A stretch of DNA of 64,000 nucleotides from an uncultured Thermoleophilia bacterium (lineage in GTDB: Bacteria; Actinomycetota; Thermoleophilia; UBA2241). Made by a program: the position numbers and the translations under genes. The notes under the pieces are model-generated. The model did not search any database. It was not told where the DNA came from and worked only from the letters and a program-made list of their open reading frames with translations. The stretch lies in the NCBI GenBank assembly GCA_963715985.1, contig CAVQSP010000003.1, forward strand, positions 55,679 to 119,678. The letters run 5' to 3'. Within the stretch, counting starts at the first letter, position 1. The number at the start of each line of letters is the position of its first letter. Positions 1-62,484 of this stretch are shown piece after piece.

Positions 1-780
1 TGGGCCGGCGAGGTCCTCGGCGTGCCGGTGGTCGACCACTGGTGGCAGACCGAGACCGGCTGGGCGATCTGCGCCAACTGCCGGGGCCTCGAGGAGCTGC
101 CCATGAAGGCGGGCTCGCCGACAAGGCCGGTGCCGGGCTTCGACCTCGTGGTGCTGGATGCGTCCGGCGAGCCGCTGGAGCCGCCGGCGGAAGGCACCCT
201 GGCCTTGCGCCTGCCCTTGCCCCCCGGCGCGCTGCCGACGCTGTGGCACAACGACGAGGGCTTCGTGACCACCTATCTGGCGCCGTTCCCCGGCTACTAC
301 TTCACCGGCGACAGCGGCAGCATCGACGCGGACGGCTACGTCTTCGTCATGGGTCGCGTCGACGACATCATCAACGTCGCCGGTCACCGGCTTTCGACGG
401 GGCGCATGGAGGAGGTCCTCGCCGCCCATCCTGACGTCGCCGAGTGCGCCGTGGTCGGTGCTGCCGACGACCTCAAGGGTCAGATCCCGCTGGGGCTCGT
501 GGTGCTCAAGGAGGGAGCCGCCCGCGAGCCCGAGGATGTCACCGCCGAGCTCGTGCGTATGGTGCGCGAGCAGGTCGGGCCGGTGGCTGCCTTCAAGCGC
601 GCGCTGGTCGTCCAGCGTCTGCCCAAGACGCGCTCCGGCAAGATCCTGCGCAGCGCCATCCGCAAGCTCGCCGACGGCGTCGAGTTCGCGACGCCGGCGA
701 CCATCGAGGACGCCTCCGTCATCGAGGACCTGCGGATCGCCTTGGGTCATGACCAGCGCACGCAATCGCCGACCGGCTGA
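1..780 (+). CDS. prpE: Propionyl-/acetyl-CoA synthetase (AMP-forming), 5' end outside window
   Basis: Frame open from base 1; DHWWQTETG, YFTGD, GRVDDIINVAGHRLSTG and LPKTRSGKILR motifs. Confidence 0.8.
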   Translation, partial: WAGEVLGVPVVDHWWQTETGWAICANCRGLEELPMKAGSPTRPVPGFDLVVLDASGEPLEPPAEGTLALRLPLPPGALPTLWHNDEGFVTTYLAPFPGYYFTGDSGSIDADGYVFVMGRVDDIINVAGHRLSTGRMEEVLAAHPDVAECAVVGAADDLKGQIPLGLVVLKEGAAREPEDVTAELVRMVREQVGPVAAFKRALVVQRLPKTRSGKILRSAIRKLADGVEFATPATIEDASVIEDLRIALGHDQRTQSPTG

Positions 781-830
781 CAGGCACGAGCCCGGCCCCC
801 TCACGGGCCCCCGAGGAAGGTAGGACAGCA

Positions 831-2303
831 GTGAAACGCAATCTCCATGCCGGCCGCCGCCGCAGCGGCGGCCTGCGCCTCGACGTCTTCACCGACGACG
901 AGCTCTCCGACATCCATCTGGCGACGCTGGACGTGCTCGAGCGCACCGGGGTCGGCGTCGAGAGCGAGGAGGCGCAGGAGATCTTCGCCGGGGCCGGCGC
1001 CCGCGTGCAGAGCGACGGGATCGTCAAGATCCCCGGCCACGTCGTCGAGGAGGCGATCGCCAGCACTCCGTCGCGGCTCGTCTGCTACGGGCGCGACCCC
1101 AAGCACGACATCGTGCTCGAGGACGGGCGCGTCGGCTTCACCAACTTCGGCGAGGGCATCCAGGTCATCGATCCCTACACCGGCGAGCTGCGCCAGACCG
1201 GCAAGCAGGACGTCGCCGACTGCTCGCGGATCATCGACGCACTGCCCGAGATCGACGTCATCGAGCGGCCGCTGGGGGCGCACGACGTGCCGGAGGCCAC
1301 CGGTCCGCTTCACAACGCCGACGCCATCATGACCAACTGCTCGAAGCACGCCTTCATCGGCCCCCTGACCGGCTACCTCGCGAGCCGCATGCGCGAGATG
1401 GCAGCCGCCATCGCCGGCGGCGCCGAGAAGCTGCGCGAGCGGCCGATCCTCTCGTACGTGATCTGTCCGGTGGCGCCGCTCGGGATGATCCGCGACGTCT
1501 GCGACATCATCATCGACGGCGCCCGCAACCACGTGCCTATCACGCCGGTCTCGATCGTCATGGCCGGCGGCTCCTCGCCCATGAACCTGGCGGGCGCCGT
1601 GGTCACGACCAACGCCGAGATCCTGGGCTGCCTGACGCTGGCCCAGCTGACCCGCAAGGGGACGCCGGTCGTGTACGGAAGCTCATCGTCCTCGATGGAC
1701 CTCCGCTACGCCTCCGCCTCCGTGGGCAGCCCCGAGTGCGGCCTCATCAACGCCGCCATCGCCTGTATGGCGCGCGCCTACCTCCTGCCCAGCTGGGTCG
1801 CGGGGCAGTAGGGCGACTCCAAAGTGGTGGATGCCCAGTCCGGCCACGAGAAGACCCTCACCGGTCTGCTGACGGCGTTGGCAGGTGCCAACCTCATCTA
1901 CGGTGCGGGGATGCTCGAGAGCGGCATGACCATCGATTACGGCCAGCTCGTCATGGACGCCGAGTTCGCGCGTCTCATCAAGTACACGGTCGCCGGCGTG
2001 CCGGTCAGCGACGAGACGCTCTCGCTCGACGTGATCAACGACGTCGGCCCCTTCCACGACTTCCTCAGCCACGCCGACACCCTGCGCCACATGCGCACCC
2101 AGAGCCAGCCCACGCTCATCGACCGCCGCGTCCGCGAGGAGTGGAGCGCCGACGGTTCGACGACCATCCACGAGCGTGCCACGGCCCGCGCCCGCGAGAT
2201 CCTCGAGACCCACGTGCCCACGCCGCTGCCCGAGGGCGCCGCCGCCGAGATGGCCGCCATCATCGCCGACGCAGAGCGGCACCTGGGGGTGACGAAAGCA
2301 TGA
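831..2303 (+). CDS. mttB: Trimethylamine methyltransferase MttB, predicted pyrrolysine-containing (in-frame TAG 1809-1811), copy 1
   Basis: ORFs 831-1811 and 1824-2303 share a frame and are separated only by TAG-GGC-GAC-TCC-AAA; the joined 490-aa product is colinear with the uninterrupted paralog at 7362; the context SWVAGQ*GDSKVVDAQSGHEKT matches the Pyl site of MttB. Confidence 0.92.
1698..2294 (+). repeat. 597-bp direct repeat, copy A (3' part of mttB copy 1)
   Basis: Reads identical by eye to 6731-7327 (offset 5033); includes the amber codon. Confidence 0.85.
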
Positions 2304-3692
2304 ACGACATGACGCACATCGAGCCCGACCCTGCTCGGGAGCAGCGCATCCGCGACCTCGACCGCGAGTACGTCCTGCACTCCTGGTCCGTGCAGTCGCA
2401 GATCAGGCCGCTGCCTGTGGCCGGCGCCGACGGGCGCTACTTCTGGGACTACGAGGGCAAGCGCTATCTCGACTTCTCGTCTCAGCTCGTCAACGTCAAC
2501 ATCGGGCATCAGCACGCCAAGGTGGTCGAGGCGATCGTGGAGCAGGCGCGCACGCTCTGCACGATCGCGCCCTCCGTGGCGAACGAGAAGCGCTCGGAGC
2601 TCGCCCGGCTGCTGGCCGAAGTCACGCCGGGCAACCTCAAAGCGTCCTTCTTCACCAACGGCGGCGCGGAGGCCAACGAGAACGCCATCAAGCTCGCCCG
2701 CTGGTACACGGGCAGGCAGAAGATCATCGCCCGCTACCGCTCGTACCACGGGGCCACGGCCGGCGCCATCGCGCTGACCGGCGACCCCCGTCGCTGGCCC
2801 GCCGAGCCGAGCATCCCGGGCGTGGTGCGCATGTTCGACCCCTACACCTACCGCTGCTCGGCCGGGCGACGGGGCGAGACCGTGGCCGAGCACGTGGCCG
2901 CCTGCCCCGTGTGCGCGGGCGGCCCTCACCTGGAGGAGATCCTCCAGTACGAGGGGCCGCACACGGTGGCCGCGGTGATCCTCGAAACGGTCACCGGCAC
3001 CAACGGCATCATCGTCCCGCCGGACGGTTACCTGCAGTCGATGCGCGAGGTGTGCGACCGCCACGGCGTCCTGCTCATCCTCGACGAGGTCATGGCCGGC
3101 TTCGGGCGCACCGGCACGCTGGTTCGCCTGCGACCACTGGGACGTCATGCCCGACATCATGACGGTAGCCAAGGGCATCAACTCAGGCTACGTACCGCTC
3201 GGGGCGATGGTCGTCAGCGAGCCCATCGCCGAGTGGCTGCAGGACAAGTACCTCGCCGGCGGTCTCACGTACAGCGGGCACCCGCTGGCCTGTGCCTCGG
3301 CCGTGGCCTCCATCGAGGCGTTTCGTGAGGAGGGCATCGTCGAGAACGCCGCGGCGATGGGCGACGTCCTGGCGGTCGAGACGGCGGCGCTGGCCGCCCG
3401 GCATCCGTCGGTCGGTGAAGTGCGCGGCCTGGGCCTCTTCTGGGGTCTCGAGCTGGTGCGCGACCGGGAGACGCGCGAGCCCCTGGTGCCCTTCAACGCT
3501 GCCGGCGACGCAGCCGCGCCGATGGCGCGCCTGGGGAAGGCGGCCATGGAGCGTGGCCTCCTCCTGATGACTCACTTCAACGTCCTCGTGATCTGCCCGC
3601 CTCTCACCATCACGCGCGAAGAGCTCGCGGAGGGTCTGGCCGTGATAGACGAGGTTCTCACGCTCTCCGACCTGGAGTGCGCCCAGCCATGA
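2300..3692 (+). CDS. Class III PLP aminotransferase (omega-amino acid type); one frameshift near 3118
   Basis: YLDFSSQL, FTNGGAEANENA, SYHGAT, LILDEVMAGFGRTG, then PDIMTVAKGINSGY in a second frame; ATG overlaps the mttB stop (ATGA). Confidence 0.85.
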
Positions 3693-3756
3693 CCGCCCAC
3701 TCCGCGCGACGAGGGATCAGCACAGCACGGGCCCTGGCCCCGACGAAAGGATCGAC

Positions 3757-5256
3757 ATGAGCGTCGCACCCCCTGTGACTTTCAACCTCCTGGAGCCGCC
3801 GAAGCAGCACTACGGCGTGCTGCGCAACTTCATCGGTGGCAAGTGGGTGGACGTCGAGACCGACCGCGTCGTCGACGTGGACGACCCCGCAAGCGGCAAG
3901 GTCATCGCCCAGGTCCCCATCAGCACCACAGACCAGGTCAACGACGCCATCCAGGCAGCCCAGGACGGCTACCAGACCTGGCGCCGGACGCCCCCGGGGG
4001 ACCGCGGCCGCTTCATGTTCGAGATCCGTGCGGCGATGCAGCGGCACGCGGAGGAGCTGTCCCGCCTGGTCACTCAAGAGAACGGCAAGGTCATCGCCGA
4101 GGGCCGCGGCGAGGCTATGCGGACGATCGAAGCGGTCGAGACCGCCGCCGCCATCACGAGCCTCATGGGCGGCTATCAGCTCGAGGACGGCGCCGCCCGC
4201 AACATCGACGAGATGGTCGTGCGCCAGCCGCTCGGCGTCTGCGCCTGCATCACGCCGTTCAACTTCCCGATCATGATGACCGGCTTCTGGTGGCCTTACG
4301 CCATAGCCGCCGGCAACACCTTCGTGGTGAATCAGTCGAAACAAACGCCTATCACCATCACGCGCGTCTTCGAGATCATCGAGGAAGTGGGCCTTCCCGC
4401 CGGCGTCATGAACCTCGTGCAGGGCGACCGCACCGCCTCCGCGGCCTTCATGGACTCTCCGCAGATCAAGGCGGTCGGCTTCATCGGTTCGACCCCGGTC
4501 GCCAAGGAGATCTACCGCCGGGCCGGCGAGACCGGCAAGCGCTGCGTGGCCAACGGCGGCGCCAAGAACTTCGCCGTGTTCATGCCGGACGCCGACGTCG
4601 ACCGCAACATGGGCAACCTGATCACGAGCTTCTTCGGCTGCACGGGTCAGCGCTGCCTGGCCACCGCGGTGGTGCTGGCGGTCGGCGACGTCTACGACGA
4701 GCTCGTCGAGAAGTTCGTGGCCGCGACGCGGGCACTCAAGGTCGGCCCCGGGCTCGACGAGAGCGTCCACATCGGCCCCGTCATCTCGGCAGCGGCAAAC
4801 GCCCGCATCCGCGACTACATCCAGAGCGGCATCGATCAAGGCGCCGAGCTTCTGGTGGACGGGCGCGACGTCGAAGTTCCGGGCTATGAGGGCGGCCACT
4901 ATGTCGGGCCCACCATCTTCGACAACTGCACCCCGGACATGACGATCTGTCAGGACGAGATATTCGGCCCCGTGGCGGCGATCGTGCGCGTCAAGGACCT
5001 CGACGAGGCGCTCGCCATCACCAACGCCTCCCCTTACGGCAATCAGGCCGTGATCTACACGAGCAACGGGGGCCATGCGCGCCGCTTCTGGTACGAGGTC
5101 GAGGCCGGAAACATCGGCGTGAACATCGGCGTGGCCGCTCCGGTGGCGTATTACCCGTTCGCCGGCATGAAGGACTCACACTACGGCAACGGCTACGCGA
5201 TGCGCGATTCGTTCGACCTGTTCACCGAGAAGAAAGTCGTCATCACCCGCTGGTAG
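3757..5256 (+). CDS. mmsA: CoA-acylating (methyl)malonate-semialdehyde dehydrogenase
   Basis: ITPFNFP, FIGSTPVA, GGAKN, FGCTGQRCLA, EIFGPV and C-terminal KVVITRW; ends in TAG. Confidence 0.8.
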   Translation: MSVAPPVTFNLLEPPKQHYGVLRNFIGGKWVDVETDRVVDVDDPASGKVIAQVPISTTDQVNDAIQAAQDGYQTWRRTPPGDRGRFMFEIRAAMQRHAEELSRLVTQENGKVIAEGRGEAMRTIEAVETAAAITSLMGGYQLEDGAARNIDEMVVRQPLGVCACITPFNFPIMMTGFWWPYAIAAGNTFVVNQSKQTPITITRVFEIIEEVGLPAGVMNLVQGDRTASAAFMDSPQIKAVGFIGSTPVAKEIYRRAGETGKRCVANGGAKNFAVFMPDADVDRNMGNLITSFFGCTGQRCLATAVVLAVGDVYDELVEKFVAATRALKVGPGLDESVHIGPVISAAANARIRDYIQSGIDQGAELLVDGRDVEVPGYEGGHYVGPTIFDNCTPDMTICQDEIFGPVAAIVRVKDLDEALAITNASPYGNQAVIYTSNGGHARRFWYEVEAGNIGVNIGVAAPVAYYPFAGMKDSHYGNGYAMRDSFDLFTEKKVVITRW

Positions 5257-5313
5257 GACTGGGCGCCGTTCGCCGGCGCCCGATCTCCGCGAGCGCGAGC
5301 TGGAGGAGTTTGG

Positions 5314-5670
5314 ATGGACAAGGACGCGATCCTCATCAAGAGCGGCGACGTCGCCCCCATCGTGCCGCCGAAGCACAGGAACACGGACACCTGGGTCATG
5401 GTGCGTCCGGCCACGACGGGCAACACGCAGTGCGAGTTCTTCGTCACGGAGATGCGGCAGGGCGGCGGCGCCGACTGGGACACCCACCCGGGCTGCGAGC
5501 ACATCTACTTCGTGATGGCCGGCCGCGCCAAGATGTGGGTGGAGGAAGAAGAGTTCGATCTGGAGCCCGGTGACTGTCTCCTGATGCGCGAGGGCGTCCG
5601 CCACAAGGTCGATGTGGTCGGCAGCGAGACCTTTCGCATCGGGGTGGTCTTCGCGCCGGGGCGCGTGTGA
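5314..5670 (+). CDS. Cupin-domain protein
   Basis: THPGCEHIYFVMAG…LEPGD…GVRH cupin motifs; GGAGGAG RBS upstream. Confidence 0.8.
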   Translation: MDKDAILIKSGDVAPIVPPKHRNTDTWVMVRPATTGNTQCEFFVTEMRQGGGADWDTHPGCEHIYFVMAGRAKMWVEEEEFDLEPGDCLLMREGVRHKVDVVGSETFRIGVVFAPGRV

Positions 5671-5863
5671 AGAGCTGCCGACAGACGCGATGCGCGCGCC
5701 GGGCGCTGAGCAAGGGAGCGGGCGGGACCGCTTGCGAACCGGACGTAACGGTGGTGAGCTTGAGCGAAGCGCGGCAAGGTCCACCGCCGCGGTCGGGCGC
5801 TTCAAGCAGCTCACGGGTATGGCCACCGTCGTCTGACGGGGCTCCGAGGAAGCGAGGACAGCA

Positions 5864-7336
5864 GTGAAACGCAATCTCCATGCCGGCCGCCGCCGCAGCG
5901 GCGGCCTGCGCCTCGACGTGTTCACCGACGACGAGCTCTCCGACATCCATCTCGGCACCCTCGACGTGCTCGAGCGCACCGGGGTCTACGTCGAGAGCGA
6001 GGAGGCCCAGGAGATCTTCGCCGGGGCCGGCGCCCGCGTCGGCGCGGACGGGGTCGTGAGGATCCCCGGCCACGTCGTCGAGGAGGCGATCGCCAGCACG
6101 CCCTCGCGGCTCGTCTGCTACGGCCGCGACCCCAAGCACGACGTCGTGCTCGAGGACGGGCGCGTGGGCTTCACCAACTTCGGCGAGGGCATCAACGTCG
6201 TCGACCCCTACACCGGCGAGCTGCGCCAGACCGTGAAGCAGGACGTCGCCGACTGCTCGCGGATCATCGACGCACTGCCCGAGATCGACGTCATCGAGCG
6301 GCCTCTGGGGGCGCACGACGTGCCCCAGGAGACGCAGCCTCTGCACAACGCCGAGGCGATCCTCACAAGCTGCTCGAAGCACGCCTTCATCGGCCCCATG
6401 ACCGGCTACCTCGCGAGCCGCATGCGCGAGATGGCGGCCGCCATCGCCGGCGGCGCCGAGAAGCTGCGCGAGCGGCCGATCCTCTCGTACATCACGTGTC
6501 CCATCAGCCCCCTCAAGATGGTGCAGGACGTCTGCGACATCGTCATGGAGGGCGCCCGCTCCGGCGTTCCCGTCAACGTCGTGTCCATGGCCATGGCCGG
6601 GGCGTCGTCCCCGGTGAACCTGGCCGGGACGTGCGTGTCACACAACGCCGAAGTGCTCTCCTGCCTCACGCTCGCCCAGCTCACGCAGAAGGGCGCGCCC
6701 ATGGTCTACGGCAGTTCGACCACGGGCATCGACCTCCGCTACGCCTCCGCCTCCGTGGGCAGCCCCGAGTGCGGCCTCATCAACGCCGCCATCGCCTGTA
6801 TGGCGCGCGCCTACCTCCTGCCCAGCTGGGTCGCGGGGCAGTAGGGCGACTCCAAAGTGGTGGATGCCCAGTCCGGCCACGAGAAGACCCTCACCGGTCT
6901 GCTGACGGCGTTGGCAGGTGCCAACCTCATCTACGGTGCGGGGATGCTCGAGAGCGGCATGACCATCGATTACGGCCAGCTCGTCATGGACGCCGAGTTC
7001 GCGCGTCTCATCAAGTACACGGTCGCCGGCGTGCCGGTCAGCGACGAGACGCTCTCGCTCGACGTGATCAACGACGTCGGCCCCTTCCACGACTTCCTCA
7101 GCCACGCCGACACCCTGCGCCACATGCGCACCCAGAGCCAGCCCACGCTCATCGACCGCCGCGTCCGCGAGGAGTGGAGCGCCGACGGTTCGACGACCAT
7201 CCACGAGCGTGCCACGGCCCGCGCCCGCGAGATCCTCGAGACCCACGTGCCCACGCCGCTGCCCGAGGGCGCCGCCGCCGAGATGGCCGCCATCATCGCC
7301 GACGCAGAGCGGCACCTGGGGGTGACGGGGACATGA
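5864..7336 (+). CDS. mttB: Trimethylamine methyltransferase MttB, predicted pyrrolysine-containing (in-frame TAG 6842-6844), copy 2
   Basis: ORFs 5864-6844 and 6857-7336 are in frame across one TAG; canonical SMAMAG-SSP, HNAEVL and YGSSTT motifs. Confidence 0.93.
6731..7327 (+). repeat. 597-bp direct repeat, copy B (3' part of mttB copy 2)
   Basis: Reads identical by eye to 1698-2294. Confidence 0.85.
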
Positions 7337-7361
7337 CAGGGCGCCGCGGGAGGCAGGAGAC

Positions 7362-8828
7362 GTGAGGCGCAACGCCGCCACGGAGCGCCGGCCTCTCGTC
7401 GGCGTGAGCATGCAGGTGCTGAGCCAGGACGGCATCGACGACATCCACCTCGCGACGCTCGAGGTCCTGGCGCAGGCAGGAGTGTTCGTCGAATCCGACG
7501 ATGCCCTGGATGTGCTGGCCGACGGCGGCTGCCGGGTGGACAAGGCGACGAAGATGGTGCGCATACCGCCCCACGTCGTCGAGGACGCGGTTCGCTCGGC
7601 GCCCCCGACGCTCGTCCTGCACGGACGAGACCGCGCACGCGACGTGGTCGTCGAGCGGGGGCGGGGTGTCTTCACGAGCTTCGGCGAGGGCATCTTCGTC
7701 ATCGACCCCTTCACCGGCGAGCGCCGCGAGCCGCGCAAGGATGATGTCGCGGCCTCCGCCGCCGCGGTCGATGCCCTCGATGAGCTCGGCATCTGCAACC
7801 GTGCGCTCGGCGCCCACGACGTCCCCCAGGCGGTCGCCGCCCTGCATACGGCCGACGCGATCCTGCGCAACACGACCAAGCACGTCTTTCTCGGCCCGCA
7901 GCGCGGCTTCCTCGCGGAGAGTATCGTGGGTCTGCAGGCGGTCATCCTGGGGTCCGCGGACGCCGTCCGCGAGCGTCCCCTGGTCACCTTCACCGCGTGC
8001 CCCGTGAGCCCACTCAAGCTGGCCCGTGACTGCTGCGAGGTCATCCTGGTGGCCGCTCGCAGCGGTGTCGGCGTCAACGTGGCCTCCATGGCCATGGCCG
8101 GCGGCTCATCGCCGATCACACTCGCCGGCACGCTGGTGACGCACAATGCCGAGGTGCTGGCCGGCATCACGCTCGCCCAGCTCGCCGAGCGGGGCGCGCC
8201 GGTGATCTACGGCAGCGTGAGCACCGGCATGGACCTGCGCCTGGCGTCGGCGAGCGTCGGCTCACCCGAGCTCGCCCTCATCACCGCCGCGGTGGCGCAG
8301 CTGGCCCAGCACTACCGCCTGCCGAGCTTCGTCGCCGGCGGCCTCGGCGACAGCAAGCTCCCCGATGCGCAGTCCGGGCACGAGAAGACGCTGACCGCCA
8401 CATTCGCGGCGCTGGCAGGCGCGAACGTGATCGCCGGCGCCGGCATCATGGAGTCGGGGCTCACCTTCGACTTCGGCCAGCTGGTCATGGACGCCGAGTT
8501 CGTCGGCATGATCGGGCACTGCGCGGCCGGCATCCGCGTCGACGACGAGACGCTGGCCGTCGACGACATCTGCGCCGTCGGCTCGTTCGGCGACTACCTC
8601 AGTCTCGAGGCGACGATGCACCACATGCGCGAGCAGAGCCAGCCGCGTCACATCGACCGCCGCGTGCGGGAGGACTGGCTGGCGCTGGGCGGCACCGACC
8701 TCCATCAGCGTGCCCTGGCCGAAGCGCGGCGCATCCTCCGAGAGTACCGGCCGGAGCCGCTCCCCGACGACATACAGGCGCAGATGACGAGCCTGGTGAC
8801 GGAGACGGAGACCCGCCGTGGGCTGTGA
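7362..8828 (+). CDS. mttB: MttB-superfamily methyltransferase, non-pyrrolysine (Leu at the Pyl site)
   Basis: Uninterrupted 488 aa; SFVAGG-L-GDSKLPDAQSGHEKT with CTC at 8343-8345. Confidence 0.9.
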   Translation: MRRNAATERRPLVGVSMQVLSQDGIDDIHLATLEVLAQAGVFVESDDALDVLADGGCRVDKATKMVRIPPHVVEDAVRSAPPTLVLHGRDRARDVVVERGRGVFTSFGEGIFVIDPFTGERREPRKDDVAASAAAVDALDELGICNRALGAHDVPQAVAALHTADAILRNTTKHVFLGPQRGFLAESIVGLQAVILGSADAVRERPLVTFTACPVSPLKLARDCCEVILVAARSGVGVNVASMAMAGGSSPITLAGTLVTHNAEVLAGITLAQLAERGAPVIYGSVSTGMDLRLASASVGSPELALITAAVAQLAQHYRLPSFVAGGLGDSKLPDAQSGHEKTLTATFAALAGANVIAGAGIMESGLTFDFGQLVMDAEFVGMIGHCAAGIRVDDETLAVDDICAVGSFGDYLSLEATMHHMREQSQPRHIDRRVREDWLALGGTDLHQRALAEARRILREYRPEPLPDDIQAQMTSLVTETETRRGL

Positions 8829-8882: not shown

Positions 8883-10094
8883 ATGACGACTCTAGACGAC
8901 GTGGTGCGGCGACAGACGATCGTCGACGCGAGGAGGTTCGATCTCGAGGGCGCCGGCCCCACGATGATGGCGGTGGTCACGACCGGCAACGGCGGCCTGG
9001 ACAAGCTCGACTATCGCGAGGTGCCCGTTCCCAAGCCCGCGGCAGGCGAGGTCCTGCTGCAGGTCCTCGCGGCCGGGGTCAACAACACCGAGATCAACAC
9101 CCGTCTCGGCTGGTACTCGTCGAGTGTCACCGACAGCACCGAGAGCACGGCGGAAGCCGAGGAGCGGGAGGCGAAGCAGAAGGCCGACGGCGGATGGAGC
9201 GAGCCGACGCCGTTCCCGTTCATCCAGGGCACCGACTGCTGCGGGCGCGTGGTCGAGGTCGCGCCGGGCGGGGACGAGAGCATGCTCGGGCGGCGCGCGC
9301 TCGTACGCGCCTGTATGCGCCCGCTCGGGTTCGGGTCCAAGGAGAACATCTGGATGGCGTCCGACTTCGACGGCGCGTTCGCCCAGTTCGTCAAGGTCCC
9401 CGCGTCGGAGGTCTTCCCCGTGGACTGCGACTGGAGCGACGTGGAGCTGGCCACCATCCCGTGCTCCTACGGGGCCGCCGAGAACATGGTGCACCGCGCC
9501 GCCCCGGTGGAAGGCGAGCACGTCCTCGTCACCGGCGCCTCGGGTGGTGTCGGGTCCGCGGCGGTGCAGCTGGCGAAGCGCCGCGGAGCCACCGTCATCG
9601 CCGACGACTCCTACCGCTTCGCGCGCCTCCGGCCGGACACCACGCCCGGCGACCGGGAGCGTCGCGAGGAGTGGCTGCAGCAGCTGCACGCCATCGGCGC
9701 TGACCGCGTCATCGAGACCGGCGAGGACATCGCCGACCTCCTCGGCGAGAAGAGCGTGGACGTCGTCATCGACAACGTGGCCGGGCCGTCGTTCGACGGC
9801 CTTCTGAGGGCGCTGAAGCGCGGCGGGCGGTACGCATCCTCGGGTGCGATCGCCGGTCCGCTGGTGACGCTCGACAAGCGCACGTTCTACCTCAAGGACC
9901 TCACGCTGATCGGCTGCACTGCGTGGGACGAGCCGGTCTTCCCGAACCTCGTCTCCTACATCGAGCGCGGCGAGATACGGCCGCTCGTGGCCAAGACGTT
10001 TCCGCTCGGCCGCATCGCCGACGCGCAGCGCGAGTTCCTCGAGAAGCGGCATCTCGGCAACTTCGTGCTGATCCCTCCCGGGATGGACGAGTGA
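8883..10094 (+). CDS. Medium-chain dehydrogenase/reductase (alcohol dehydrogenase/quinone oxidoreductase family)
   Basis: GEVLLQVLAAGVN, IQGTDCCG, VLVTGASGGVGSAAVQLAK. Confidence 0.85.
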   Translation: MTTLDDVVRRQTIVDARRFDLEGAGPTMMAVVTTGNGGLDKLDYREVPVPKPAAGEVLLQVLAAGVNNTEINTRLGWYSSSVTDSTESTAEAEEREAKQKADGGWSEPTPFPFIQGTDCCGRVVEVAPGGDESMLGRRALVRACMRPLGFGSKENIWMASDFDGAFAQFVKVPASEVFPVDCDWSDVELATIPCSYGAAENMVHRAAPVEGEHVLVTGASGGVGSAAVQLAKRRGATVIADDSYRFARLRPDTTPGDRERREEWLQQLHAIGADRVIETGEDIADLLGEKSVDVVIDNVAGPSFDGLLRALKRGGRYASSGAIAGPLVTLDKRTFYLKDLTLIGCTAWDEPVFPNLVSYIERGEIRPLVAKTFPLGRIADAQREFLEKRHLGNFVLIPPGMDE

Positions 10095-10552
10095 CGCGCC
10101 GGACCGCGAGCTCGCGCCGACACGGTCTGGCACAGGCCTGAGGAGAAGCGACGGACTTCTACACGGGAAGTGTGCTGAGGCTCGACCTCACGAGGCTCGA
10201 GGCCTCGGTCGAGCCGCTGGCCCACGGATCGGCGGCCTGACATGTCGCGAGGCGTCGCGACGAACGACCGGAGGTGGCCGGCACGGCACAGGGTCTGGCC
10301 GAGCGCCGTCGGCCCGCATATGCAGCGGTCAGAATCAGCCTTGAGAGAGGATCATGTCTGGGAGGATGCCTTTGGCAGAATGACAGCGCGCCATGGCGCG
10401 TCCGCCGTGCTGACTAGCCGGTCGAGTCTCTCTTGCTAGCATGCGGGAGGGGTTGTATGTTGCCGGGAAGTCGGCTGGGGGCGGTGTGGCGGCGCGAGAT
10501 GCCGCGACCGCGTGTGTCGTTTCGCAGGACGAGTCTAGGGGGAATCGCGAAC

Positions 10553-12242
10553 ATGGCCAGTGAACAGTACCGCAGAGAGTACGCACAACACCTGGTGGAG
10601 ATGGTCAACAAGGGCAAGATGACGCGGCGCCAGCTGCTCATCAGGGCCTCCGTCTTCGGCTTCTCGGCGACGGTCGCCAGCCAGCTGCTGGCCGCCTGCG
10701 GCGGCAGCAGCAGCGGCGGCGAGACCACGTCGGCCTCGCCGACGGCCTCGGCGGGCCCCGAGCCCGTCATGGGCGGCACCCTCAAGGTCATCATCTCGCC
10801 GTCGATCACCGACATCGACCCGGTCACCATCTACGACCAGGGTGGCATCACGCTCATCTCGCAGTTCTGCGAGTACCTCATCAACCTCAAGGACGACATG
10901 TCGCTGGAGGGCCGGCTGGCGGAGAGCTGGTCGCCGAACGACACGGGCGACGTCTGGACCTTCAAGCTGCGCCAAGGCATCAAGTTCAACGACGGCAGCC
11001 CCTTCGAGGCTCCGGATGTCGTCTCCACGATGGACCGCCTCGTCGATCCCAAGAGCGGATCGGCCGCCCAGGCCGCCCTGCTCGGTATCCTCTCCGTCGG
11101 CGGCACGAAGGCAGTGGACCAGTACACGGTCGACTTCAATCTCGACAAGCCGTTCGCGGACTTCCCGTACATGGTGTGCACCTCCTCGTACAACACCGTG
11201 ATGCTGCCGCGCAACTACAAGGGCGACTGGGTCAAGAACCCCGTGGGCACCGGTCCCTGGCTGCTCAAGGAATACGTGGCCAAGCAGAAGTGCACCGCCA
11301 CCAAGAAGCCCGACTACTGGCGCAAGGACGCGGAGGGCCGGCAGCTGCCCTTCATGGACGAGATCGACTGGGTCATGATCGCGGACGAGTCGGCCTCCAC
11401 GCTGCAGCTGCAATCGGGAACCGCCGACGTGCAGGCCCAGACCGTCTTCCAGGGCGCGCAGGCGCTGTGGACCGACCCCAACCTCAGGGTCGACATCTAC
11501 CCGTCTCCCGGCATCCGCGAGCTCCAGATGAACACCCTGAAGGATCCCTTCACAGACAAGAGAGTGCGCCAGGCAGTCGCGCTCAGCCTCGATCGTGAAG
11601 CCATCAACCAGGCGCTCTTCGACGGCAAGAGCATCATCGGCAACGACACCTTCTTCCAGACGCCGCCCTACCCCAACCAGCCGCCCACGAGTCGCGCGCA
11701 CGCAGGACCACGCGAAGGCCAAGCAGCTCCTCGCGGATGCCGGATACCCAGACGGGCTCAAGGTCACACTGACCGCCGAGGACTACCTCGAGGTCCCGCA
11801 GTACGCGCAGCTCATCCAGGCGCAGTGCAAGCCGGCCGGCATCGACGTCAAGATCGACCCGATCCCCTACGAGCAGTGGTACGCGGGCGCCAACGACGTC
11901 ACGCCCTGGCTCAACGTGCCTTTCGGCATCACCGAGTGGGGCCCGCGCCCGACCCCCGGCGTGTTCGTGCAGGCCATGCTCCTGCCTGATAGCGCCTGGA
12001 GCTCCTCGCACTGGAACAACCCGGAGTTCGCGAGCACCTTCGAGCAGTACATGTCCACGACCGACGAGGCATCGCGGCTCGATCTGGCCACCAAGCTGTC
12101 GGCCATCCAGCAGGACGACACGCCCATCATCGTGGCCTTCTACATCACGCAGCTGCGTGCCCAGAAGAAGACCGTGTACGGCATCACGGGCCCCGGCGCC
12201 TTCTACTGCGACGTGTCCGGGGCGTTCATCGCGACGGCGTGA
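10553..12242 (+). CDS. ABC substrate-binding lipoprotein, family 5 (Opp/Dpp), Tat signal; frameshift near 11690
   Basis: MTRRQLL twin-Arg plus LAAC lipobox; LAESW, WTFKLRQGIKF, PVGTGPW; C-terminus in ORF 11595-12242. Confidence 0.88.
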
Positions 12243-27763: not shown

Positions 27764-29206
27764 CTACTGCACCAGCTTCTCGTCAGCACGCCGCACAACG
27801 GCGTCCAGATCGCGCTTGACGTCGTCAGGCAGGTCGAGCGGCGCAAGAGTGCCGCGCAGCTCCCGGTACTTCTCCACGGCGCGGTCGTACAGGTCCGGCT
27901 CACCCGCCGTCTGCCACGTGTCCAGCGGGTCGGCGATGAAGATGTCCTGGCGCACGGCCTCACGGCAGTGCTTGAGCGTGTGCTTGGCGCGGAGGTAGTG
28001 GCCGCCGGCGCCGGCGTCGAGGATCGCCTGCACGCCCAGCGTGTCGTCGTCCACCTGCACGCCGGCCACGTAGCGGCGCAGCAGCGCCGTCATGCGGTCG
28101 TCGATGATCAGCTGCACGGGGCTGGCCAGCGTGGAGCCGCCGAGGCGGCCGGCGCCGTAGGCCACGTCCGCGCCGGCCATCGTGTTCAGCGTCGCGTTCA
28201 CGCTCTTGGCCAGCAGGGTCTGGCCGTCCGAGACGTACGAGTCGGTCCAGAGCGAGGCCATGAGCACCGGTACGTGGAAGGCCTCGCGCATGAACTGCGC
28301 GGCCGCGGCCTGCGCGAGCGCCGTCTCCACCGAGGCGATGTTCGAGTTGCCCGTCGCCATGTCCAGCGTCGAGTTGTAGCCACAGGCGAGGATCGGGTGG
28401 CCCGGCGCCAGCACCTGCGTCATCACGATCATGGCCAGCACCTCGACGCCCACCAGCAGAGCGCCGCCCGCCGGGGTGATGGGGCCCGTGCCGCCGCCGA
28501 GAACAAGGCTGCAGGGAGCGACCGGGATGCCGTACTTGCAGCACAGCGTGATGGTCTCGAGGTCCATGTCCTTGAAGACCAGCGGCGAGAGCGACGTCGG
28601 GTCGAACCAGGCGAGCGGCCGGTCGCGCAGGGCCTCCTCGCTGCCGGCGCGCGCCAGCAGCAGCTCGAAGAGGTAGGGAACGCTCTCCATGCAGTAGGCG
28701 AGCAGGTTCAGGGGCTTGGACGTGTTCTGCAGCTGCACGGCCAGGGCGTGGATGTCGGCCGTCTCGGGCGGCACGTCCATCGGCGTCTGGATGGCGCAGG
28801 CGTCGATGTTGGGCAGTGCCTCGATCAGCTGGCACCACTCGGCGAAGAGCTCTTCGGTGTTGTCGCGGAACGCACCCGTCTCGGGGTCGAGGTAGAGCAT
28901 GGACTGGATGCAGCTGGACGTGTAGAAGGAGCGGTCCGGATGCGGCAGGGTGAGGTCGTGGGCCGCGTCTCCCCCCTTGGCGACGAACTCGCGCGGAGCC
29001 GAGGCGAGGGCGGACTCGATGAGGTCCGCCGGGAACTTGACCATGCGCGTGGCGTCGTCAACCTCGCAGCCGGCGTCGCGCAGCCACCCAAGTGCGCCCT
29101 CGTGGTCCACCTTCACTCCGTGCCCGGAGAGGATCTCCACGCACTTCTCGTAGACGGTGGCGACTTCAGTGCTGGTCAGCGGCTGGATGCTGAGGGTGCC
29201 GGACAT
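27764..29206 (-). CDS. mttB: MttB-superfamily methyltransferase, non-pyrrolysine
   Basis: PTSLSPL, GGTGPITPAG, LDMATG, ASLWTDSYVSDGQ (Trp at the Pyl-equivalent site), GAGGHYL. Confidence 0.85.
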   Translation of the reverse strand: MSGTLSIQPLTSTEVATVYEKCVEILSGHGVKVDHEGALGWLRDAGCEVDDATRMVKFPADLIESALASAPREFVAKGGDAAHDLTLPHPDRSFYTSSCIQSMLYLDPETGAFRDNTEELFAEWCQLIEALPNIDACAIQTPMDVPPETADIHALAVQLQNTSKPLNLLAYCMESVPYLFELLLARAGSEEALRDRPLAWFDPTSLSPLVFKDMDLETITLCCKYGIPVAPCSLVLGGGTGPITPAGGALLVGVEVLAMIVMTQVLAPGHPILACGYNSTLDMATGNSNIASVETALAQAAAAQFMREAFHVPVLMASLWTDSYVSDGQTLLAKSVNATLNTMAGADVAYGAGRLGGSTLASPVQLIIDDRMTALLRRYVAGVQVDDDTLGVQAILDAGAGGHYLRAKHTLKHCREAVRQDIFIADPLDTWQTAGEPDLYDRAVEKYRELRGTLAPLDLPDDVKRDLDAVVRRADEKLVQ

Positions 29207-32791: not shown

Positions 32792-34071
32792 CAGTCGCCC
32801 GCCCGGTGGCGCTCGACGACCAGCTCGCCGCGCTTGTAGACGCGCTCCACCACGTTGCCTCCCAGCCTGTAGATGGCGTGCTCGTACTGCGGCACGTCCC
32901 AGATCTGCACGTCGGCAAGCTTACCCGCTGCCAGCACTCCTCGGTCATCGAGGGCGAGGGCGCGGGCGCCGCCGGCGGTGGCCGCCCACACGGCCTCCGC
33001 CGGGCTCATGCGGTAGAGCCGGCAGGCGAGCGCCATGACGAACTGCTGCGACTCTGCCCAGCAGCCGGGGCAGATGTCCGTGGCCAGGGCGAGCGTCATG
33101 CCGGCGGCGATGAGGGTGCGGGCGTCGAACGGGCGCGGGTGACGCACGGCGAAGTCGAGGGCAGGCATGATGACACCGACCACGCCGGCCGCAGCCATCT
33201 TCTCCATCACCTCGGGCGGCGTGAAGTTGAGGTGGTCGGCCGAGACCATGCGCATCTCGGCGGCCACATCGGTGCCGCCGATGTACGAGTAGGCGTCGGC
33301 GTGGATCTTGGGCTCCATGCCGGCGGCGCGGCACGCCTCCAGGATGCGCCGTGACTCCTCCGCCGTGTAGTAGCCGTCGTCGCACCACACGTCGGCGAAC
33401 TCGGCGAGACCCTCTTGCGCGATCAGAGGGGTCATCTCCTCACAGAGGATGTCGATGTAGCGGTCCCGCGCCACCTCGGGCGGGAAGCCGTGCGCCCCGA
33501 GGAACGTGGAGAGCACGTCGACCGGCGAGGCGGCGTCGAGCGCCCTGTTGACGCGCAGCAGCTCGAGCTCCGTCTCGGTGGCGAGGCCGTAGCCGCTCTT
33601 GCTCTCGACCGTGGTGGTGCCGGCGGCGAGCATCCCGCTGAGGCGCACCGCGGACTGGGCGAGAAGCTCCAGCGAGGTCGCCTCGCGCGTGCGCGACACC
33701 GTCTCCATGGGGCCGACGCCGATGCCGCGCGCGCGGATGGCGTCCATGTCGGAGGTCGTCATCTTGGCGGCGTACTCGTCCACGCGGGAGCCGCCGAACA
33801 CGAGGTGCGTGTGGCTGTCCACGAAGCCCGGCGCCACCACCTTGCCGCGCGCGTCCACGACCTCGGCGGCGGAGCAGTCCGCGGCCGCCTCGACGGCCGC
33901 GCGGCCGCCGGCCGCCAGGATGGTCTCGCCGGCGATGGCCAGCCAGCCGCCGGCGACGACGCCCGCGTCGTACTCGTCGCCGGCGCACGTGACCAGCTGC
34001 GCTGCGTCGGCGATCACCAGGTCGGCGCGCGGACGCCGGCCGCCACCAGCCGTCGTCTCGCCCTCAGACAT
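32791..34071 (-). CDS. hutI: Imidazolonepropionase-like amidohydrolase
   Basis: PGFVDSHTHLVFGGSR, GTTTVESKSGYGL, TFLGAH, KIHAD, SADHL, ALATD. Confidence 0.87.
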   Translation of the reverse strand: MSEGETTAGGGRRPRADLVIADAAQLVTCAGDEYDAGVVAGGWLAIAGETILAAGGRAAVEAAADCSAAEVVDARGKVVAPGFVDSHTHLVFGGSRVDEYAAKMTTSDMDAIRARGIGVGPMETVSRTREATSLELLAQSAVRLSGMLAAGTTTVESKSGYGLATETELELLRVNRALDAASPVDVLSTFLGAHGFPPEVARDRYIDILCEEMTPLIAQEGLAEFADVWCDDGYYTAEESRRILEACRAAGMEPKIHADAYSYIGGTDVAAEMRMVSADHLNFTPPEVMEKMAAAGVVGVIMPALDFAVRHPRPFDARTLIAAGMTLALATDICPGCWAESQQFVMALACRLYRMSPAEAVWAATAGGARALALDDRGVLAAGKLADVQIWDVPQYEHAIYRLGGNVVERVYKRGELVVERHRAGD

Positions 34072-34103
34072 CGTCACCCTCGCCGTTGACGATCGCTGGG
34101 CCG

Positions 34104-35825
34104 TCAGCCCTCGAGGTCCCGCGGCCCGAACGTCGCCTTGCGCGTCCACCAGAGCGGCACCTTGATGCTCTCGTCGGTGAGCGGACCCGCCCGTTGGCCA
34201 CGTCCCTGGCGGCCTCGTAGCCGGCCTGGGCGTGACGGATCACGCCGATGCCGGAGTCCACCGTCAGCGACACGGAGAGTCGCAGGTCGGCCTCCTCGGT
34301 GCCGTCGGCGATCATCGTGACGCCGGTGTGCACGGCCTCGCCCATCGAGTAGTTCGCCTGGCCGGCGATGAGGTCGGCCATGCCGCAGGAGTTCAGAAGG
34401 CCGTTGAGCACCGGCCAGTCGCTGATGAGGTCGCCGCCGTCCGCCATGTTCTCGGACTCGAACGTCGGGTTCACGATGGAGCCGGAGTCGAGGTTGTCGC
34501 GGGAGAAGGCCACCGGCCCCTTGACCTCGCCCTTGCGGATCAGGTCGTTGACGGCCAGGCCGAACTTCTTGCGCTGGCCGAAGCCCAGGTAGCAGATGCG
34601 CGCCGGCAGCGCCTCGATCGGGATGTGCTCGCGGGCCAGCTTGATCCAGCGCGTCACCAGCAGGTCGTCGGCGAACAGCTCGAGGCAGAGGTCGTCGAGG
34701 CGCGCCAGGTCGCTCGCCTCGCCGCTCACGCAGGTCCAGCGGAACGGGCCCCGGCCCTCGCAGAACAGCGGGCGGATGTACTCGCTGACGAAGCCGGGGA
34801 TCGTCATGGCCTCCGCCTCGGGCATGCCGGCGTCGCGGCACTCCTTGCGGATGCTGGTGCCGTACTCGAACGTGGGCACGCCGGCGGCGAAGAACTTGTT
34901 CATCGTGCGCAGCTGGCTCATCATGCTCTCCCGCGCGCGCCGCAGGTACTCCTCACGGTTCTCGACGCGCAGCACAGCGGCCTCGTCCGGAGTGAGGCCC
35001 GCCGGGATGTACGAGATGGGGTCGTGGCACGGGCACATCTCAGTGACGATGTCCGGCCGGAAGCCCTTGTCGTAGGCCTCCTGGAACAGCTCCGCCGCGT
35101 TGCCCACCACGGCGATGCCGAGCGGCTTGCCCTCGGCGGCCGTCTTCTTCGCCAGCTCGATGGCCTCGTCCAGCGAGCCGACCTTGCACGTCGATGAACT
35201 TCTTCTCGATGCGGCGGTCGATGACGCGTTGGTCGGCGTCCACCACGATGCCCACGCCGCCGTGCATCGTCATGGCGCGCGTCTGGTTGCCGCCCATGCC
35301 GCCGGCGCCGGCGGTGAGCAGGATGCGGCCCACGAGCGAGTCGTCGTAGCACTTGCGGGCGATGGCCGAGAACGTCTCGAAGGTCCCCTGGATCACGCCC
35401 TGCGTGCCGATGTACTCCCACGGGCCGGCCGTGTACTGGGCGAACATCGTGAGGTTCTTGTCCTGCAGGTCGTAGAAGATGGGCCAGGTGGCCTTCATGA
35501 TGTTGGTGTTGGCCATCACCACGCGCGGCGCCAGCCGGTGCGTCTGGAACACGGCCACCGGCATGCCGGACTGCACCACGAGGGTCTCCTCATCGCCCAG
35601 CTCCTTGAGCGCCGCGACGATGGCGTGGTACGACTCCCAGTTGCGCGCGCACTTGCCGATGCCGCCGTAGATGACGAGCTCCTCCGGCTTCTCGGCGTTC
35701 TCCATGTTGTTCTCGAGCATGCGCAGGATCGTCTCCTGCTTCCAGCCTTTGCAGCGCAGCGTGGGGCCGCGCTGGGCCTTCACGGAGTAGAGGATCTCGG
35801 GCTTGGGTGTCTGGGAGTCGGCCAT
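34104..35825 (-). CDS. hutU: Urocanate hydratase homologue, non-canonical; frameshifts near 35185 and 34190
   Basis: ELVIYGGIGKCARNW, YIGTQGVIQGT, YIRPLFCEGRGPFRW, LPARICYLG, SRDNLDSGS. Confidence 0.87.
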
Positions 35826-35952
35826 TGGTCTCAATCCCTTTCTGAGCGTCGGCGTTCGCGCGGGCCCGCAGAGAGGGCGCGGCCACGGGGGCGCGAGCGG
35901 GCACGCCTACACTGATGGGGCCGCGCCCACGGCGCAACGAGGCATCGCCGTG

Positions 35953-45717: not shown

Positions 45718-45771
45718 GGCCCGCTACCGCCGCGGCGGGCGCCGGCCGCGAAACCGATCGGAGGCGACGCG

Positions 45772-62461: not shown

Positions 62462-62484
62462 CCGGGAGGGTCGCTCCCGGTGCG

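What the first reader, a model, noticed from the sequence alone, without database searches (positions are those of the whole stretch)
831..7336. Two mttB genes with an in-frame amber codon at the pyrrolysine site: probable expanded genetic code in a high-GC bacterium
Seen: in both genes one TAG (1809-1811; 6842-6844) separates two in-frame halves that together form a full-length 490-aa MttB, and the downstream halves have no evident RBS. The neighbouring paralog aligns through the same site with a Leu codon. Established: methylamine methyltransferases (MttB, MtbB, MtmB) carry pyrrolysine encoded by UAG at this position, best known in methylotrophic methanogens and some Firmicutes and Deltaproteobacteria. 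Inference: this organism decodes UAG as Pyl, so automated annotation would wrongly give four fragments. The host looks unlike the classic Pyl users. The window's other errors are mostly indels, so a substitution exactly at the Pyl codon is unlikely to be noise.
Basis: partly seen in the sequence, partly recalled or inferred. Interest (0 to 1): 0.92.

Follow-up and report, generated by a model that had tools for sequence, protein, structure and literature searches.

The report
Pyrrolysine-coding mttB pair in Thermoleophilia
Two neighbouring trimethylamine methyltransferase genes of an uncultured soil and wetland actinobacterium really do read an internal TAG stop codon as the rare 22nd amino acid pyrrolysine, but this trait has already been reported briefly for this bacterial group.

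Summary
Window 831-2303 and 5864-7336 are full-length 490-aa MttB genes. Each has one in-frame TAG, and it aligns exactly with Pyl334 of the solved MttB chain 7xcl.

The interpretation also holds. The genome carries pylB, pylC, pylD, tRNA-Pyl (CUA), pylSn and pylSc on contig C13. It has 23 Pyl-column TAGs: 10 in MttB, 11 in MtbB and 2 in MtmB. In 31 genomes of the genus, 136 of 141 close homologs keep an in-frame TAG.

TAG is still about 29% of stop codons and RF1 is present, so UAG is read two ways.

The host is a Thermoleophilia MAG. PylSc is found across its family: 42 of 45 genomes.

This is not new. A 2022 survey table lists a Thermoleophilia PylSc (PMC9630628). A 2023 paper reports Actinobacteriota MAGs expressing Pyl mttB and mtbB (PMC10805028). 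This scan has also met it before on other Thermoleophilia DNA.

Three points add something:
- The two copies are mosaics. Their ends are homogenised, while each keeps its own conserved centre.
- The adjacent Leu paralog is a secondary Pyl loss inside the Pyl clade.
- A hairpin 66 nt after the UAG is kept by rare codons and compensatory changes, and the Leu paralog lacks it.

Verdict: a new member of a known kind.

The parts
831..2303 (+). mttB copy 1, a Pyl-type trimethylamine methyltransferase of 490 aa. The Pyl codon TAG is at 1809-1811. It has Ile where M. barkeri MttB has Met249.
5864..7336 (+). mttB copy 2, a Pyl-type trimethylamine methyltransferase of 490 aa. The Pyl codon TAG is at 6842-6844. 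The equivalents of Gly110, Met249 and Tyr364 are kept (G107, M242, Y357).
1809..1811 (+). In-frame TAG of copy 1, at the Pyl334 column.
6842..6844 (+). In-frame TAG of copy 2, at the Pyl334 column.
6842..6941 (+). Match to Rfam RF02510 PYLIS_3 (pyrrolysine insertion sequence, mttB): 77.6 bits against a gathering score of 38, E 2.5e-16. The identical sequence lies at 1809-1908 in copy 1.
6907..6927 (+). Conserved hairpin at +66 to +86 nt from the UAG (G.GUUGGC-AGGU-GCCAAC.U). It is built with the rare codons TTG and GCA.
1874..1894 (+). The same hairpin in copy 1. The sequence is identical, through gene conversion between the copies.
7362..8828 (+). MttB paralog without Pyl. It has Leu (CTC, 8343-8345) at the Pyl column and Ala at the Tyr364 column. 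It nests inside the Pyl-MttB clade and lacks the hairpin.
22..780 (+). 3' part of an acetyl-CoA-synthetase-like AMP-binding enzyme. The gene starts upstream of the window, at C3:54494.
2309..3692 (+). Class-III aminotransferase. It is frameshifted in this assembly between 3147 and 3328, and intact in G043.
3757..5256 (+). Aldehyde dehydrogenase (PF00171).
5314..5670 (+). Small cupin-domain protein.
8883..10094 (+). Zinc-type alcohol dehydrogenase, the last gene of the tightly packed same-strand run.

Best explanation
Both genes encode full-length, pyrrolysine-dependent MttB-type methylamine:corrinoid methyltransferases. The host is an uncultured Thermoleophilia (Actinomycetota) bacterium.

Shown:
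- The internal UAG sits at the catalytic Pyl column.
- The genome carries the full decoding and biosynthesis set: pylB/C/D, tRNA-Pyl(CUA), and PylRS split into PylSn and PylSc.

Inferred:
- Pyl-tRNA(Pyl) competes with RF1 at UAG, since TAG remains a common stop. Readthrough gives the 490-aa enzyme.
- Pyl327 activates the amine.
- The methyl group passes to a MttC-like corrinoid protein. That gene sits next to copy 1 in the closest relative; about 20 such genes lie elsewhere in this genome and none in the window.
- The methyl group then probably passes to tetrahydrofolate through a pterin-binding methyltransferase, whose candidate gene lies beside a RamA-like activase.

The two copies are old paralogs. 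Their 5' and 3' parts are homogenised by gene conversion, while each keeps its own central barrel segment under purifying selection.
For: The TAG lies at the Pyl334 column of the solved MttB chain. The Gly110 and Tyr364 equivalents are kept in both copies.

Pyl machinery on contig C13:
- PylSc scores 316 bits against a cut-off of 178. Its best PDB hit is the pyrrolysyl-tRNA synthetase 3dsq, E 7e-93.
- PylSn scores 124.6 bits against a cut-off of 51.
- PylC and PylD score over their cut-offs. pylB is in two frames.
- tRNA-Pyl has a CUA anticodon and folds as a cloverleaf. It is the only CUA tRNA among the 53 found.

There are 23 Pyl-column TAGs in three non-homologous families: 10 MttB, 11 MtbB, 2 MtmB.

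Across the genus:
- 30 of 31 genomes have a close homolog, and 136 of 141 matches carry an in-frame TAG.
- MtbB matches are present in 31 of 31 genomes, and all 150 listed matches have one TAG, with 70 more not listed.
- PylSc is found in 23 of 24 genus genomes. Across the class it is in 42 of 45 genomes of the family and 8 of 45 of a second family; none was found in the 160 genomes sampled from ten other families.

The frame stays under coding selection past the TAG. In a related strain's contig, 21 of the 22 listed differences are at third codon positions, including one after the TAG.

Downstream partners: two RamA-like activase genes, and a Pterin_bind gene at C11:151314 next to one of them.

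Mosaic structure: the 3' 540 nt are identical between the copies but differ between genomes. Codons 150-300 differ at 39 residues between the copies, but at only 5 and 2 residues between orthologs.
Against: - No protein-level evidence exists; nobody has seen the Pyl peptide.
- pylB is frameshifted in this assembly. If that is real, this strain could not make Pyl.
- The genome is a MAG (88.8% complete, 7.3% contamination), and the pyl genes lie on a different contig from the window.
- No corrinoid protein gene lies in the window. MtrH-type methyltransferases were not found.
- One genus genome with TAG-bearing mttB genes, G004 (93% complete), showed no PylSc.
- TAG ends about 29% of long ORFs, with no excess of back-up stops. 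Readthrough of ordinary genes would therefore be a cost, and how it is avoided is unknown.
- Copy 1 has Ile at the Met249 gate and both copies have Glu at Thr111, so specificity for trimethylamine is assumed, not shown.
Confidence: 0.92

Rival explanations
1. UAG acts only as a stop here. The cell makes 326-aa truncated proteins, or separate 326-aa and 159-aa pieces that assemble, and the Pyl machinery serves other genes.
For: TAG is a common stop in this genome (765 of 2677 heuristic ORF ends) and RF1 is present. A GTG lies 12 nt after each TAG, preceded by a weak UAGGG.
Against: - The TAG is at the catalytic Pyl column, and Tyr364, which works with Pyl, lies in the downstream part.
- The same-frame continuation is kept in 136 of 141 homologs.
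- Variation after the TAG stays at third codon positions.
- The only paralog in the clade that lost the TAG also lost Tyr364.
Confidence: 0.03
2. This strain has lost pyrrolysine synthesis because its pylB is truly frameshifted. Its 23 TAG genes are then on the way to becoming pseudogenes, or depend on Pyl or its precursor from outside the cell.
For: pylB matches TIGR03910 in two overlapping frames, profile positions 5-252 and 240-347.
Against: - The assembly has many frameshifts in plainly essential or conserved genes: the aminotransferase, the solute-binding protein, urocanase and AcnX.
- Three other genus genomes have pylB split at different places (G013, G016 and G021), which suggests assembly error, while 23 of 31 have it intact.
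- The TAG genes show no other decay.
Confidence: 0.04
3. The TAGs are sequencing errors or nonsense mutations in pseudogenes.
For: The assembly is error-prone.
Against: - Its errors are indels, not substitutions.
- The same codon sits at the same column in 10 paralogs here and in 136 of 141 homologs from independent assemblies.
- Public contigs from other samples bridge the site with no listed change.
Confidence: 0.01

Closest known systems
MttB, the trimethylamine:corrinoid methyltransferase of Methanosarcina barkeri (PDB 7XCL, 7XCM, 7XCN; Li et al. 2023, PMC9842639, passages read)
   Same: - Same family (PF06253), and the match runs the full length at E about 1e-115.
- UAG at the Pyl334 column.
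- Gly110 and Tyr364 equivalents kept in both copies; Met249 kept in copy 2.
   Different: - The host is bacterial, with about 70% G+C.
- Glu replaces Thr111.
- Copy 1 has Ile at Met249.
- No mttC or mttP gene is adjacent in the window.
- The methyl acceptor cannot be coenzyme M in a non-methanogen (inference).
- About 10 Pyl paralogs per genome. That Methanosarcina has only one or two copies is recalled, not checked.
Bacterial Pyl users with a split PylRS (PylSn plus PylSc): Desulfitobacterium hafniense and the Olavius delta1 symbiont (Zhang and Gladyshev 2007, PMC1976440, passages read)
   Same: - Separate pylSn and pylSc genes, with the bacterial PylSc 3dsq as the best structural hit.
- TAG is still used as a stop.
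- MttB and MtbB are the Pyl proteins.
   Different: - The phylum is Actinomycetota.
- There are 23 Pyl-column TAGs here, including two in MtmB, against 8 Pyl proteins in delta1, which was called the largest bacterial set in 2007.
- Some of the 23 are fragments, and the MAG has 7.3% contamination.
Pyl-encoding mttB and mtbB in Actinobacteriota MAGs of Stordalen Mire (Ellenbogen et al. 2023, PMC10805028, passages read), and the Thermoleophilia PylSc entry in Guo et al. 2022 (PMC9630628, passage and supplement rows read)
   Same: Same phylum and probably the same class, the same genes, and the same kind of wetland or soil habitat.
   Different: - The terms pylS, pylT and pylB do not occur in the main text of the 2023 paper.
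- The 2022 table lists no PylSn for the two actinobacterial entries. Here PylSn, pylT and pylBCD are all found.
Rfam RF02510 PYLIS_3 (pyrrolysine insertion sequence, mttB)
   Same: The 100 nt from the UAG match the model end to end at 77.6 bits, against a gathering score of 38.
   Different: - The pairs conserved here, at +66 to +86, are not the pairs of the Rfam consensus structure.
- Much of the score comes from conserved coding sequence.
- No function is shown for either structure.

Membership tests
Pyl-dependent MttB (PF06253, trimethylamine methyltransferase) | Full-length match to the family profile and to the solved enzyme | tested here: met
   PF06253 at E 3e-88 and 1e-91 over profile positions 30-497 of 500. 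Chain 7xcl_A at E 2e-115 over query residues 2-483.
Pyl-dependent MttB (PF06253, trimethylamine methyltransferase) | Single in-frame UAG at the Pyl334 column | tested here: met
   Codon 327 of both copies aligns with the X at position 334 of 7xcl_A.
Pyl-dependent MttB (PF06253, trimethylamine methyltransferase) | Gly110 and Tyr364, reported as fully conserved in Pyl MttBs (PMC9842639) | tested here: met
   G107 and Y357 in both copies. All 10 Pyl-site paralogs keep the Tyr. Six of the nine that cover the Gly column keep Gly; the other three have D, A and S.
Pyl-dependent MttB (PF06253, trimethylamine methyltransferase) | Met249, the residue that moves to open the substrate pocket | tested here: inconclusive
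   Copy 2 has Met242. Copy 1 has Ile242, and so does its ortholog in G043.
Pyl-dependent MttB (PF06253, trimethylamine methyltransferase) | Cognate corrinoid protein (MttC) gene alongside | tested here: not met
   None of the 24 TIGR02370 matches in the genome lies in the window. The closest relative G043 does have a B12-binding protein gene directly upstream of copy 1 (L093 2726-3379).
Pyl-dependent MttB (PF06253, trimethylamine methyltransferase) | Trimethylamine-specific methyl transfer activity | not testable with these tools
   This needs an enzyme assay.
Pyrrolysine decoding system | tRNA-Pyl with a CUA anticodon | tested here: met
   ARAGORN finds tRNA-Pyl (cta) at C13:555126-555198, directly after pylD. 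It is the only CUA tRNA among 53 and folds as a cloverleaf.
Pyrrolysine decoding system | Pyrrolysyl-tRNA synthetase (PylSc, with PylSn in bacteria) | tested here: met
   TIGR02367 at 316 bits (cut-off 178). TIGR03912 at 124.6 bits (cut-off 51). PDB hits 3dsq at E 7e-93 and 5ud5 at E 1.5e-12.
Pyrrolysine decoding system | Biosynthesis genes pylB, pylC and pylD | tested here: inconclusive
   PylC scores 317.9 bits and PylD 199.5 bits, both over their cut-offs. pylB is split into two frames (304.8 and 126.4 bits against a cut-off of 348). It is intact in 23 of 31 genus genomes.
Pyrrolysine decoding system | A Pyl-containing peptide detected | not testable with these tools
   No proteomic data were on hand.
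Rfam RF02510 PYLIS_3 | Score above the curated gathering threshold | tested here: met
   77.6 bits against 38, model positions 1-100 of 100.
Rfam RF02510 PYLIS_3 | The family's consensus base pairs supported in these sequences | not tested
   Only the hairpin found here (columns 99-119 of A1) was counted. RNAalifold did not return the Rfam pairs.

The most novel reading that the evidence does not exclude
The same-strand run is mttB-Pyl(Ile249), aminotransferase, aldehyde dehydrogenase, cupin, mttB-Pyl(Met249), mttB(Leu/Ala) and alcohol dehydrogenase. It could be a stepwise N-demethylation and deamination route for a methylated amine other than trimethylamine.

In this reading:
- The Pyl-less derivative takes the quaternary amine.
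- The two Pyl paralogs, with their separately conserved barrels, take the tertiary and secondary amines.
- The aminotransferase and the dehydrogenases then oxidise the freed primary amine.
- The conserved hairpin 66 nt after the UAG is a bacterial cis-signal that helps Pyl insertion win against RF1, in a genome where TAG still ends about 29% of genes.
Probability: 0.1. Interest if true: 0.75.

Novelty: new member of a known kind. Interest (0 to 1): 0.42.

Why it matters
This shows that a whole family of abundant, uncultured soil, sediment and wetland Actinomycetota uses a 22-amino-acid code, with both tRNA-Pyl and tRNA-Sec present. These bacteria also carry dozens of methylamine demethylase genes. 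That would make them likely competitors of methylotrophic methanogens for tri-, di- and monomethylamine, which bears on methane budgets.

Standard gene callers should split every one of these genes at the TAG, so the trait is probably under-counted in catalogues.

The natural pair of Pyl copies with the hairpin and a Leu paralog without it, coding the same peptide, gives a clean handle on an old question: do bacteria that keep TAG as a stop use an mRNA signal for pyrrolysine insertion?

Tried and rejected
- **Selenocysteine in MttB paralogs.** The five MttB-family matches with an in-frame TGA were inspected. The TGAs lie before the true start, at frameshifts or at match ends, so this gives no evidence for Sec.
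- **Stable structure after the UAG in the single sequence.** The 120 nt after the UAG fold no better than shuffles (z = -1.05). Only the comparative test supports the small hairpin.
- **Long-range helix.** RNAalifold proposed pairing of G-UAG-G with UCUAC about 90 nt downstream. Not one pair has changes on both sides, and the bases are fixed by the Ile-Tyr364 codons, so it is not claimed.
- **Conserved link with the aminotransferase and aldehyde dehydrogenase.** Neither gene was found within 1.5 kb of the 71%-identical orthologs in ten other genus genomes. There the gene follows mtbB and precedes a distant MttB paralog. The link holds only for this genome and G043.
- **MtrH-type methyl acceptor.** Not found in this genome, which is 88.8% complete.
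- **Depth and habitat from laid contigs.** Depth across contigs cannot rank expression. The RNA-library contig shows presence only, and DNA carry-over is not excluded.


Full report
**Observation.** Under table 11 the window holds paired ORFs of 326 aa and 159 aa at 831-1811/1824-2303 and at 5864-6844/6857-7336. Reading TAG through joins each pair into one 490-aa frame with a single TAG at codon 327. Both products match Pfam MTTB nearly end to end. Against the Protein Data Bank the best match is the trimethylamine methyltransferase chain 7xcl_A (E 2e-115), and the TAG codon falls on that chain's unknown residue X at position 334, the pyrrolysine. The paper on that structure (PMC9842639, passages read) names Gly110, Thr111, Met249, Pyl334 and Tyr364 as the active-site residues. 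The equivalents here are G107, E108, M242 (copy 2) or I242 (copy 1), O327 and Y357. The next gene, 7362-8828, is a 488-aa paralog with Leu (CTC) at the Pyl column.

**Is the TAG decoded?** The window's genome is a MAG of 4.35 Mb in 22 contigs, 88.8% complete with 7.3% contamination. Contig C13 holds pylB, pylC, pylD and, directly after them, a tRNA with anticodon CUA that ARAGORN calls tRNA-Pyl. About 1 kb further on lies pylSn, and about 4 kb further on lies pylSc.
- PylSc, PylSn, PylC and PylD all score above NCBIfam's curated cut-offs.
- PylSc is closest to the solved pyrrolysyl-tRNA synthetase 3dsq, which I recall, from no call, to be the Desulfitobacterium hafniense enzyme. PylSn is closest to the PylRS N-terminal domain 5ud5.
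- A scan of the whole genome finds 53 tRNAs. One has the CUA anticodon and one is a tRNA-Sec.
- pylB is split between two overlapping frames. Of 31 genus genomes, 23 have it in one frame above the cut-off, and three others are split at different places. This assembly also has frameshifts in several conserved genes. I therefore read the split as an assembly indel, but it remains the main caveat.

**Is it more than chance?**
- Ten MttB-family genes or fragments of this genome carry TAG at exactly this column, in the motif VAGxO[GSTA]D[SGA]K. An eleventh TAG lies elsewhere and was set aside.
- Eleven MtbB genes or fragments carry TAG in the motif DG[LF]O[VAM]G, and two MtmB genes in GMGLOGPE. That makes 23 Pyl-column TAGs in three unrelated enzyme families.
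- In 31 genomes of the same genus, 30 have a close homolog of copy 2 (E at most 1e-100). Of the 141 matches, 136 carry an in-frame TAG and 5 carry none, at identities from 97% down to about 47%.
- For MtbB, all 31 genomes match and all 150 listed matches have one TAG; 70 more were not listed.

**Public contigs.** Contigs from other samples were laid on 5700-7400. Three bridge the TAG, one of them from an RNA library, and no change is listed at 6842-6844. In the related-strain contig, 21 of the 22 listed differences lie at third codon positions on both sides of the TAG. Because 72 differences were not shown and contigs drop rare variants, I count this as supportive only.

**Nature of the code.** Among 2677 long, high-GC3 ORFs, 1837 end in TGA, 765 in TAG and 75 in TAA. 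There is no excess of nearby back-up stops after TAG (this is a heuristic gene call). RF1 is present. UAG is therefore ambiguous rather than reassigned, as the 2007 Olavius paper describes for Desulfitobacterium. How ordinary TAG stops are protected is not known.

**Host and distribution.** The 33 closest PylSc loci in the species-representative collection are 68-79% identical. All but a few are titled uncultured Thermoleophilia MAGs, and Thermoleophilia is a class of Actinomycetota. PylSc is found in:
- 23 of 24 sampled genomes of the genus;
- 42 of 45 genomes of the family and 8 of 45 of a second family;
- none of the 160 genomes sampled from ten other families of the class.

The stretch is held at high word share by 14 DNA runs labelled sediment, soil or wetland metagenomes.

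**Prior knowledge.**
- Guo et al. 2022 (PMC9630628) state that PylRS genes occur in 'two Actinobacteria'. Their supplementary tables name a Thermoleophilia bacterium and another actinobacterium, both without a PylSn entry.
- Ellenbogen et al. 2023 (PMC10805028) state that some Actinobacteriota MAGs of a thawing mire express Pyl-encoding mttB and mtbB, recognised by truncation at the amber codon. The terms pylS, pylT and pylB do not occur in their main text.
- A full-text search for 'Thermoleophilia' with 'pyrrolysine' gave one paper, which was irrelevant. Searches with Actinomycetota and Actinobacteriota gave nothing further on the point.
- This scan's own notes record the same finding in many other Thermoleophilia genomes.

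The finding is therefore a well-supported new member of a known kind.

**What this locus adds.**

1. *Context.* The genes form a tightly packed same-strand run:
   - acetyl-CoA-synthetase-like enzyme (its 3' part lies at 22-780);
   - mttB copy 1;
   - class-III aminotransferase;
   - aldehyde dehydrogenase;
   - cupin;
   - mttB copy 2;
   - the Leu paralog;
   - zinc alcohol dehydrogenase.

   The closest relative, G043 (97% identity), has the same run plus a corrinoid-protein gene before copy 1 and an aldehyde:ferredoxin oxidoreductase gene after the alcohol dehydrogenase. In ten more distant genus genomes the 71%-identical ortholog instead follows mtbB, and neither the aminotransferase nor the aldehyde dehydrogenase was found within 1.5 kb of it.

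2. *Mosaic copies.* Within each genome the last 540 nt of the two copies are identical, although the same stretch differs between genomes. That is the mark of gene conversion. Codons 150-300 differ at 39 residues between the copies, but at only 5 and 2 residues between orthologs, against 23 synonymous differences each. Each copy's central barrel, including the Met249 position (Ile in copy 1), is therefore kept by selection.

3. *Secondary Pyl loss.* In a maximum-likelihood tree of 29 MttB-family proteins of this genome, the nine Pyl genes and the Leu paralog form one clade (support 100/99). The Leu paralog lies inside that clade (98/96 and 94/94). It has Ala in place of Tyr364, and so does its G043 ortholog. 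Twenty non-Pyl paralogs were chosen from the best-scoring rows, and split or partial genes were left out.

4. *Hairpin.* The 100 nt from the UAG match Rfam PYLIS_3 at 77.6 bits.
   - The hairpin lies at 6907-6927, with the identical sequence at 1874-1894. Its stem is GUUGGC/GCCAAC with two further outer pairs, and its loop is AGGN.
   - It is built from TTG and GCA, which make up 3.8% of Leu codons and 4.0% of Ala codons in this genome.
   - In a set of 56 distinct Pyl-mttB sequences (the 55 aligned below plus one contig-C9 fragment), 53 use TTG, while the loop's Gly third base takes all four letters.
   - On the alignment of 55 sequences, 96.1% of cells pair. Three of eight pairs show changes on both sides (10 cells), and none of 500 shuffles reaches these values. 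Slid controls pair at 16-53%.
   - The sequences are related paralogs, so the shuffle control overstates significance. The three compensatory changes may be only three events.
   - The Leu paralog encodes the same peptide ALAGAN with common codons and cannot form the stem, in both genomes.
   - These pairs are not the ones in Rfam's consensus structure. At 66 nt from the A site a direct contact with the decoding ribosome is unlikely, so its role is unexplained.

**Mechanism, with status.**

Shown:
- family membership;
- the Pyl column;
- the machinery genes;
- conservation of the TAG;
- ambiguous use of TAG.

Inferred:
- readthrough by Pyl-tRNA in competition with RF1;
- methyl transfer to a corrinoid protein, for which there are about 20 candidate genes;
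- reactivation by RamA-like proteins;
- onward transfer to tetrahydrofolate by the pterin-binding protein encoded next to one RamA gene. MtrH was not found, and five URO-D-family genes also exist.

Not shown:
- the substrate of either copy;
- any regulation;
- any protein product.

Noticed in passing
G000 contig C13:139538-139635 (outside the window): A tRNA-Sec (UCA) is present alongside tRNA-Pyl, so the organism probably uses both the 21st and the 22nd amino acid.
   Followed up: no
G000 contigs C11, C3 and C14; C3:48518-49861 lies about 6 kb upstream of the window: Five or six MtmB-family genes have no TAG at all. Several sit next to corrinoid-protein genes: one is followed by a corrinoid gene and an ornithine/arginine-type decarboxylase gene. 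Their substrates are unknown.
   Followed up: partly
window 6839-6845 and alignment A1, columns 30-34: The base before the Pyl UAG is G in 55 of 55 Pyl-mttB sequences. When the preceding residue is Leu, its codon is always the rare TTG. The base after the UAG is G in 48, A in 5 and T in 2. This could be a codon-context effect on suppression.
   Followed up: partly
window 780-831, compared with L093 2726-3379 (G043): The closest relative has a 217-aa B12-binding corrinoid protein gene between the AMP-binding enzyme and mttB copy 1. In this genome only 50 nt separate the two genes. This is either a deletion or an assembly loss.
   Followed up: partly
window 2309-3692, 10433-12242, 34064-35834 and 41668-42885: Several conserved genes are split between frames: the aminotransferase, the solute-binding protein, urocanase and AcnX. 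This is typical of indel errors in a long-read assembly. The aminotransferase is intact in G043.
   Followed up: partly
window 27764-29206 (-), 44174-45781 (+), 48729-50186 (-), 50359-52428 (-) and 62397-63932 (-): Five more non-Pyl MttB-family genes lie in the window, around histidine-utilisation genes (ammonia-lyase, urocanase, FTCD-like). The genome gave 89 MTTB-profile matches in all. Earlier notes of this scan deal with these genes.
   Followed up: no
L008 10054-10056 (G000 C13): pylD itself ends in TAG, 70 nt before pylT. Efficient UAG suppression would lengthen PylD by some 16 residues. This may mean nothing.
   Followed up: no
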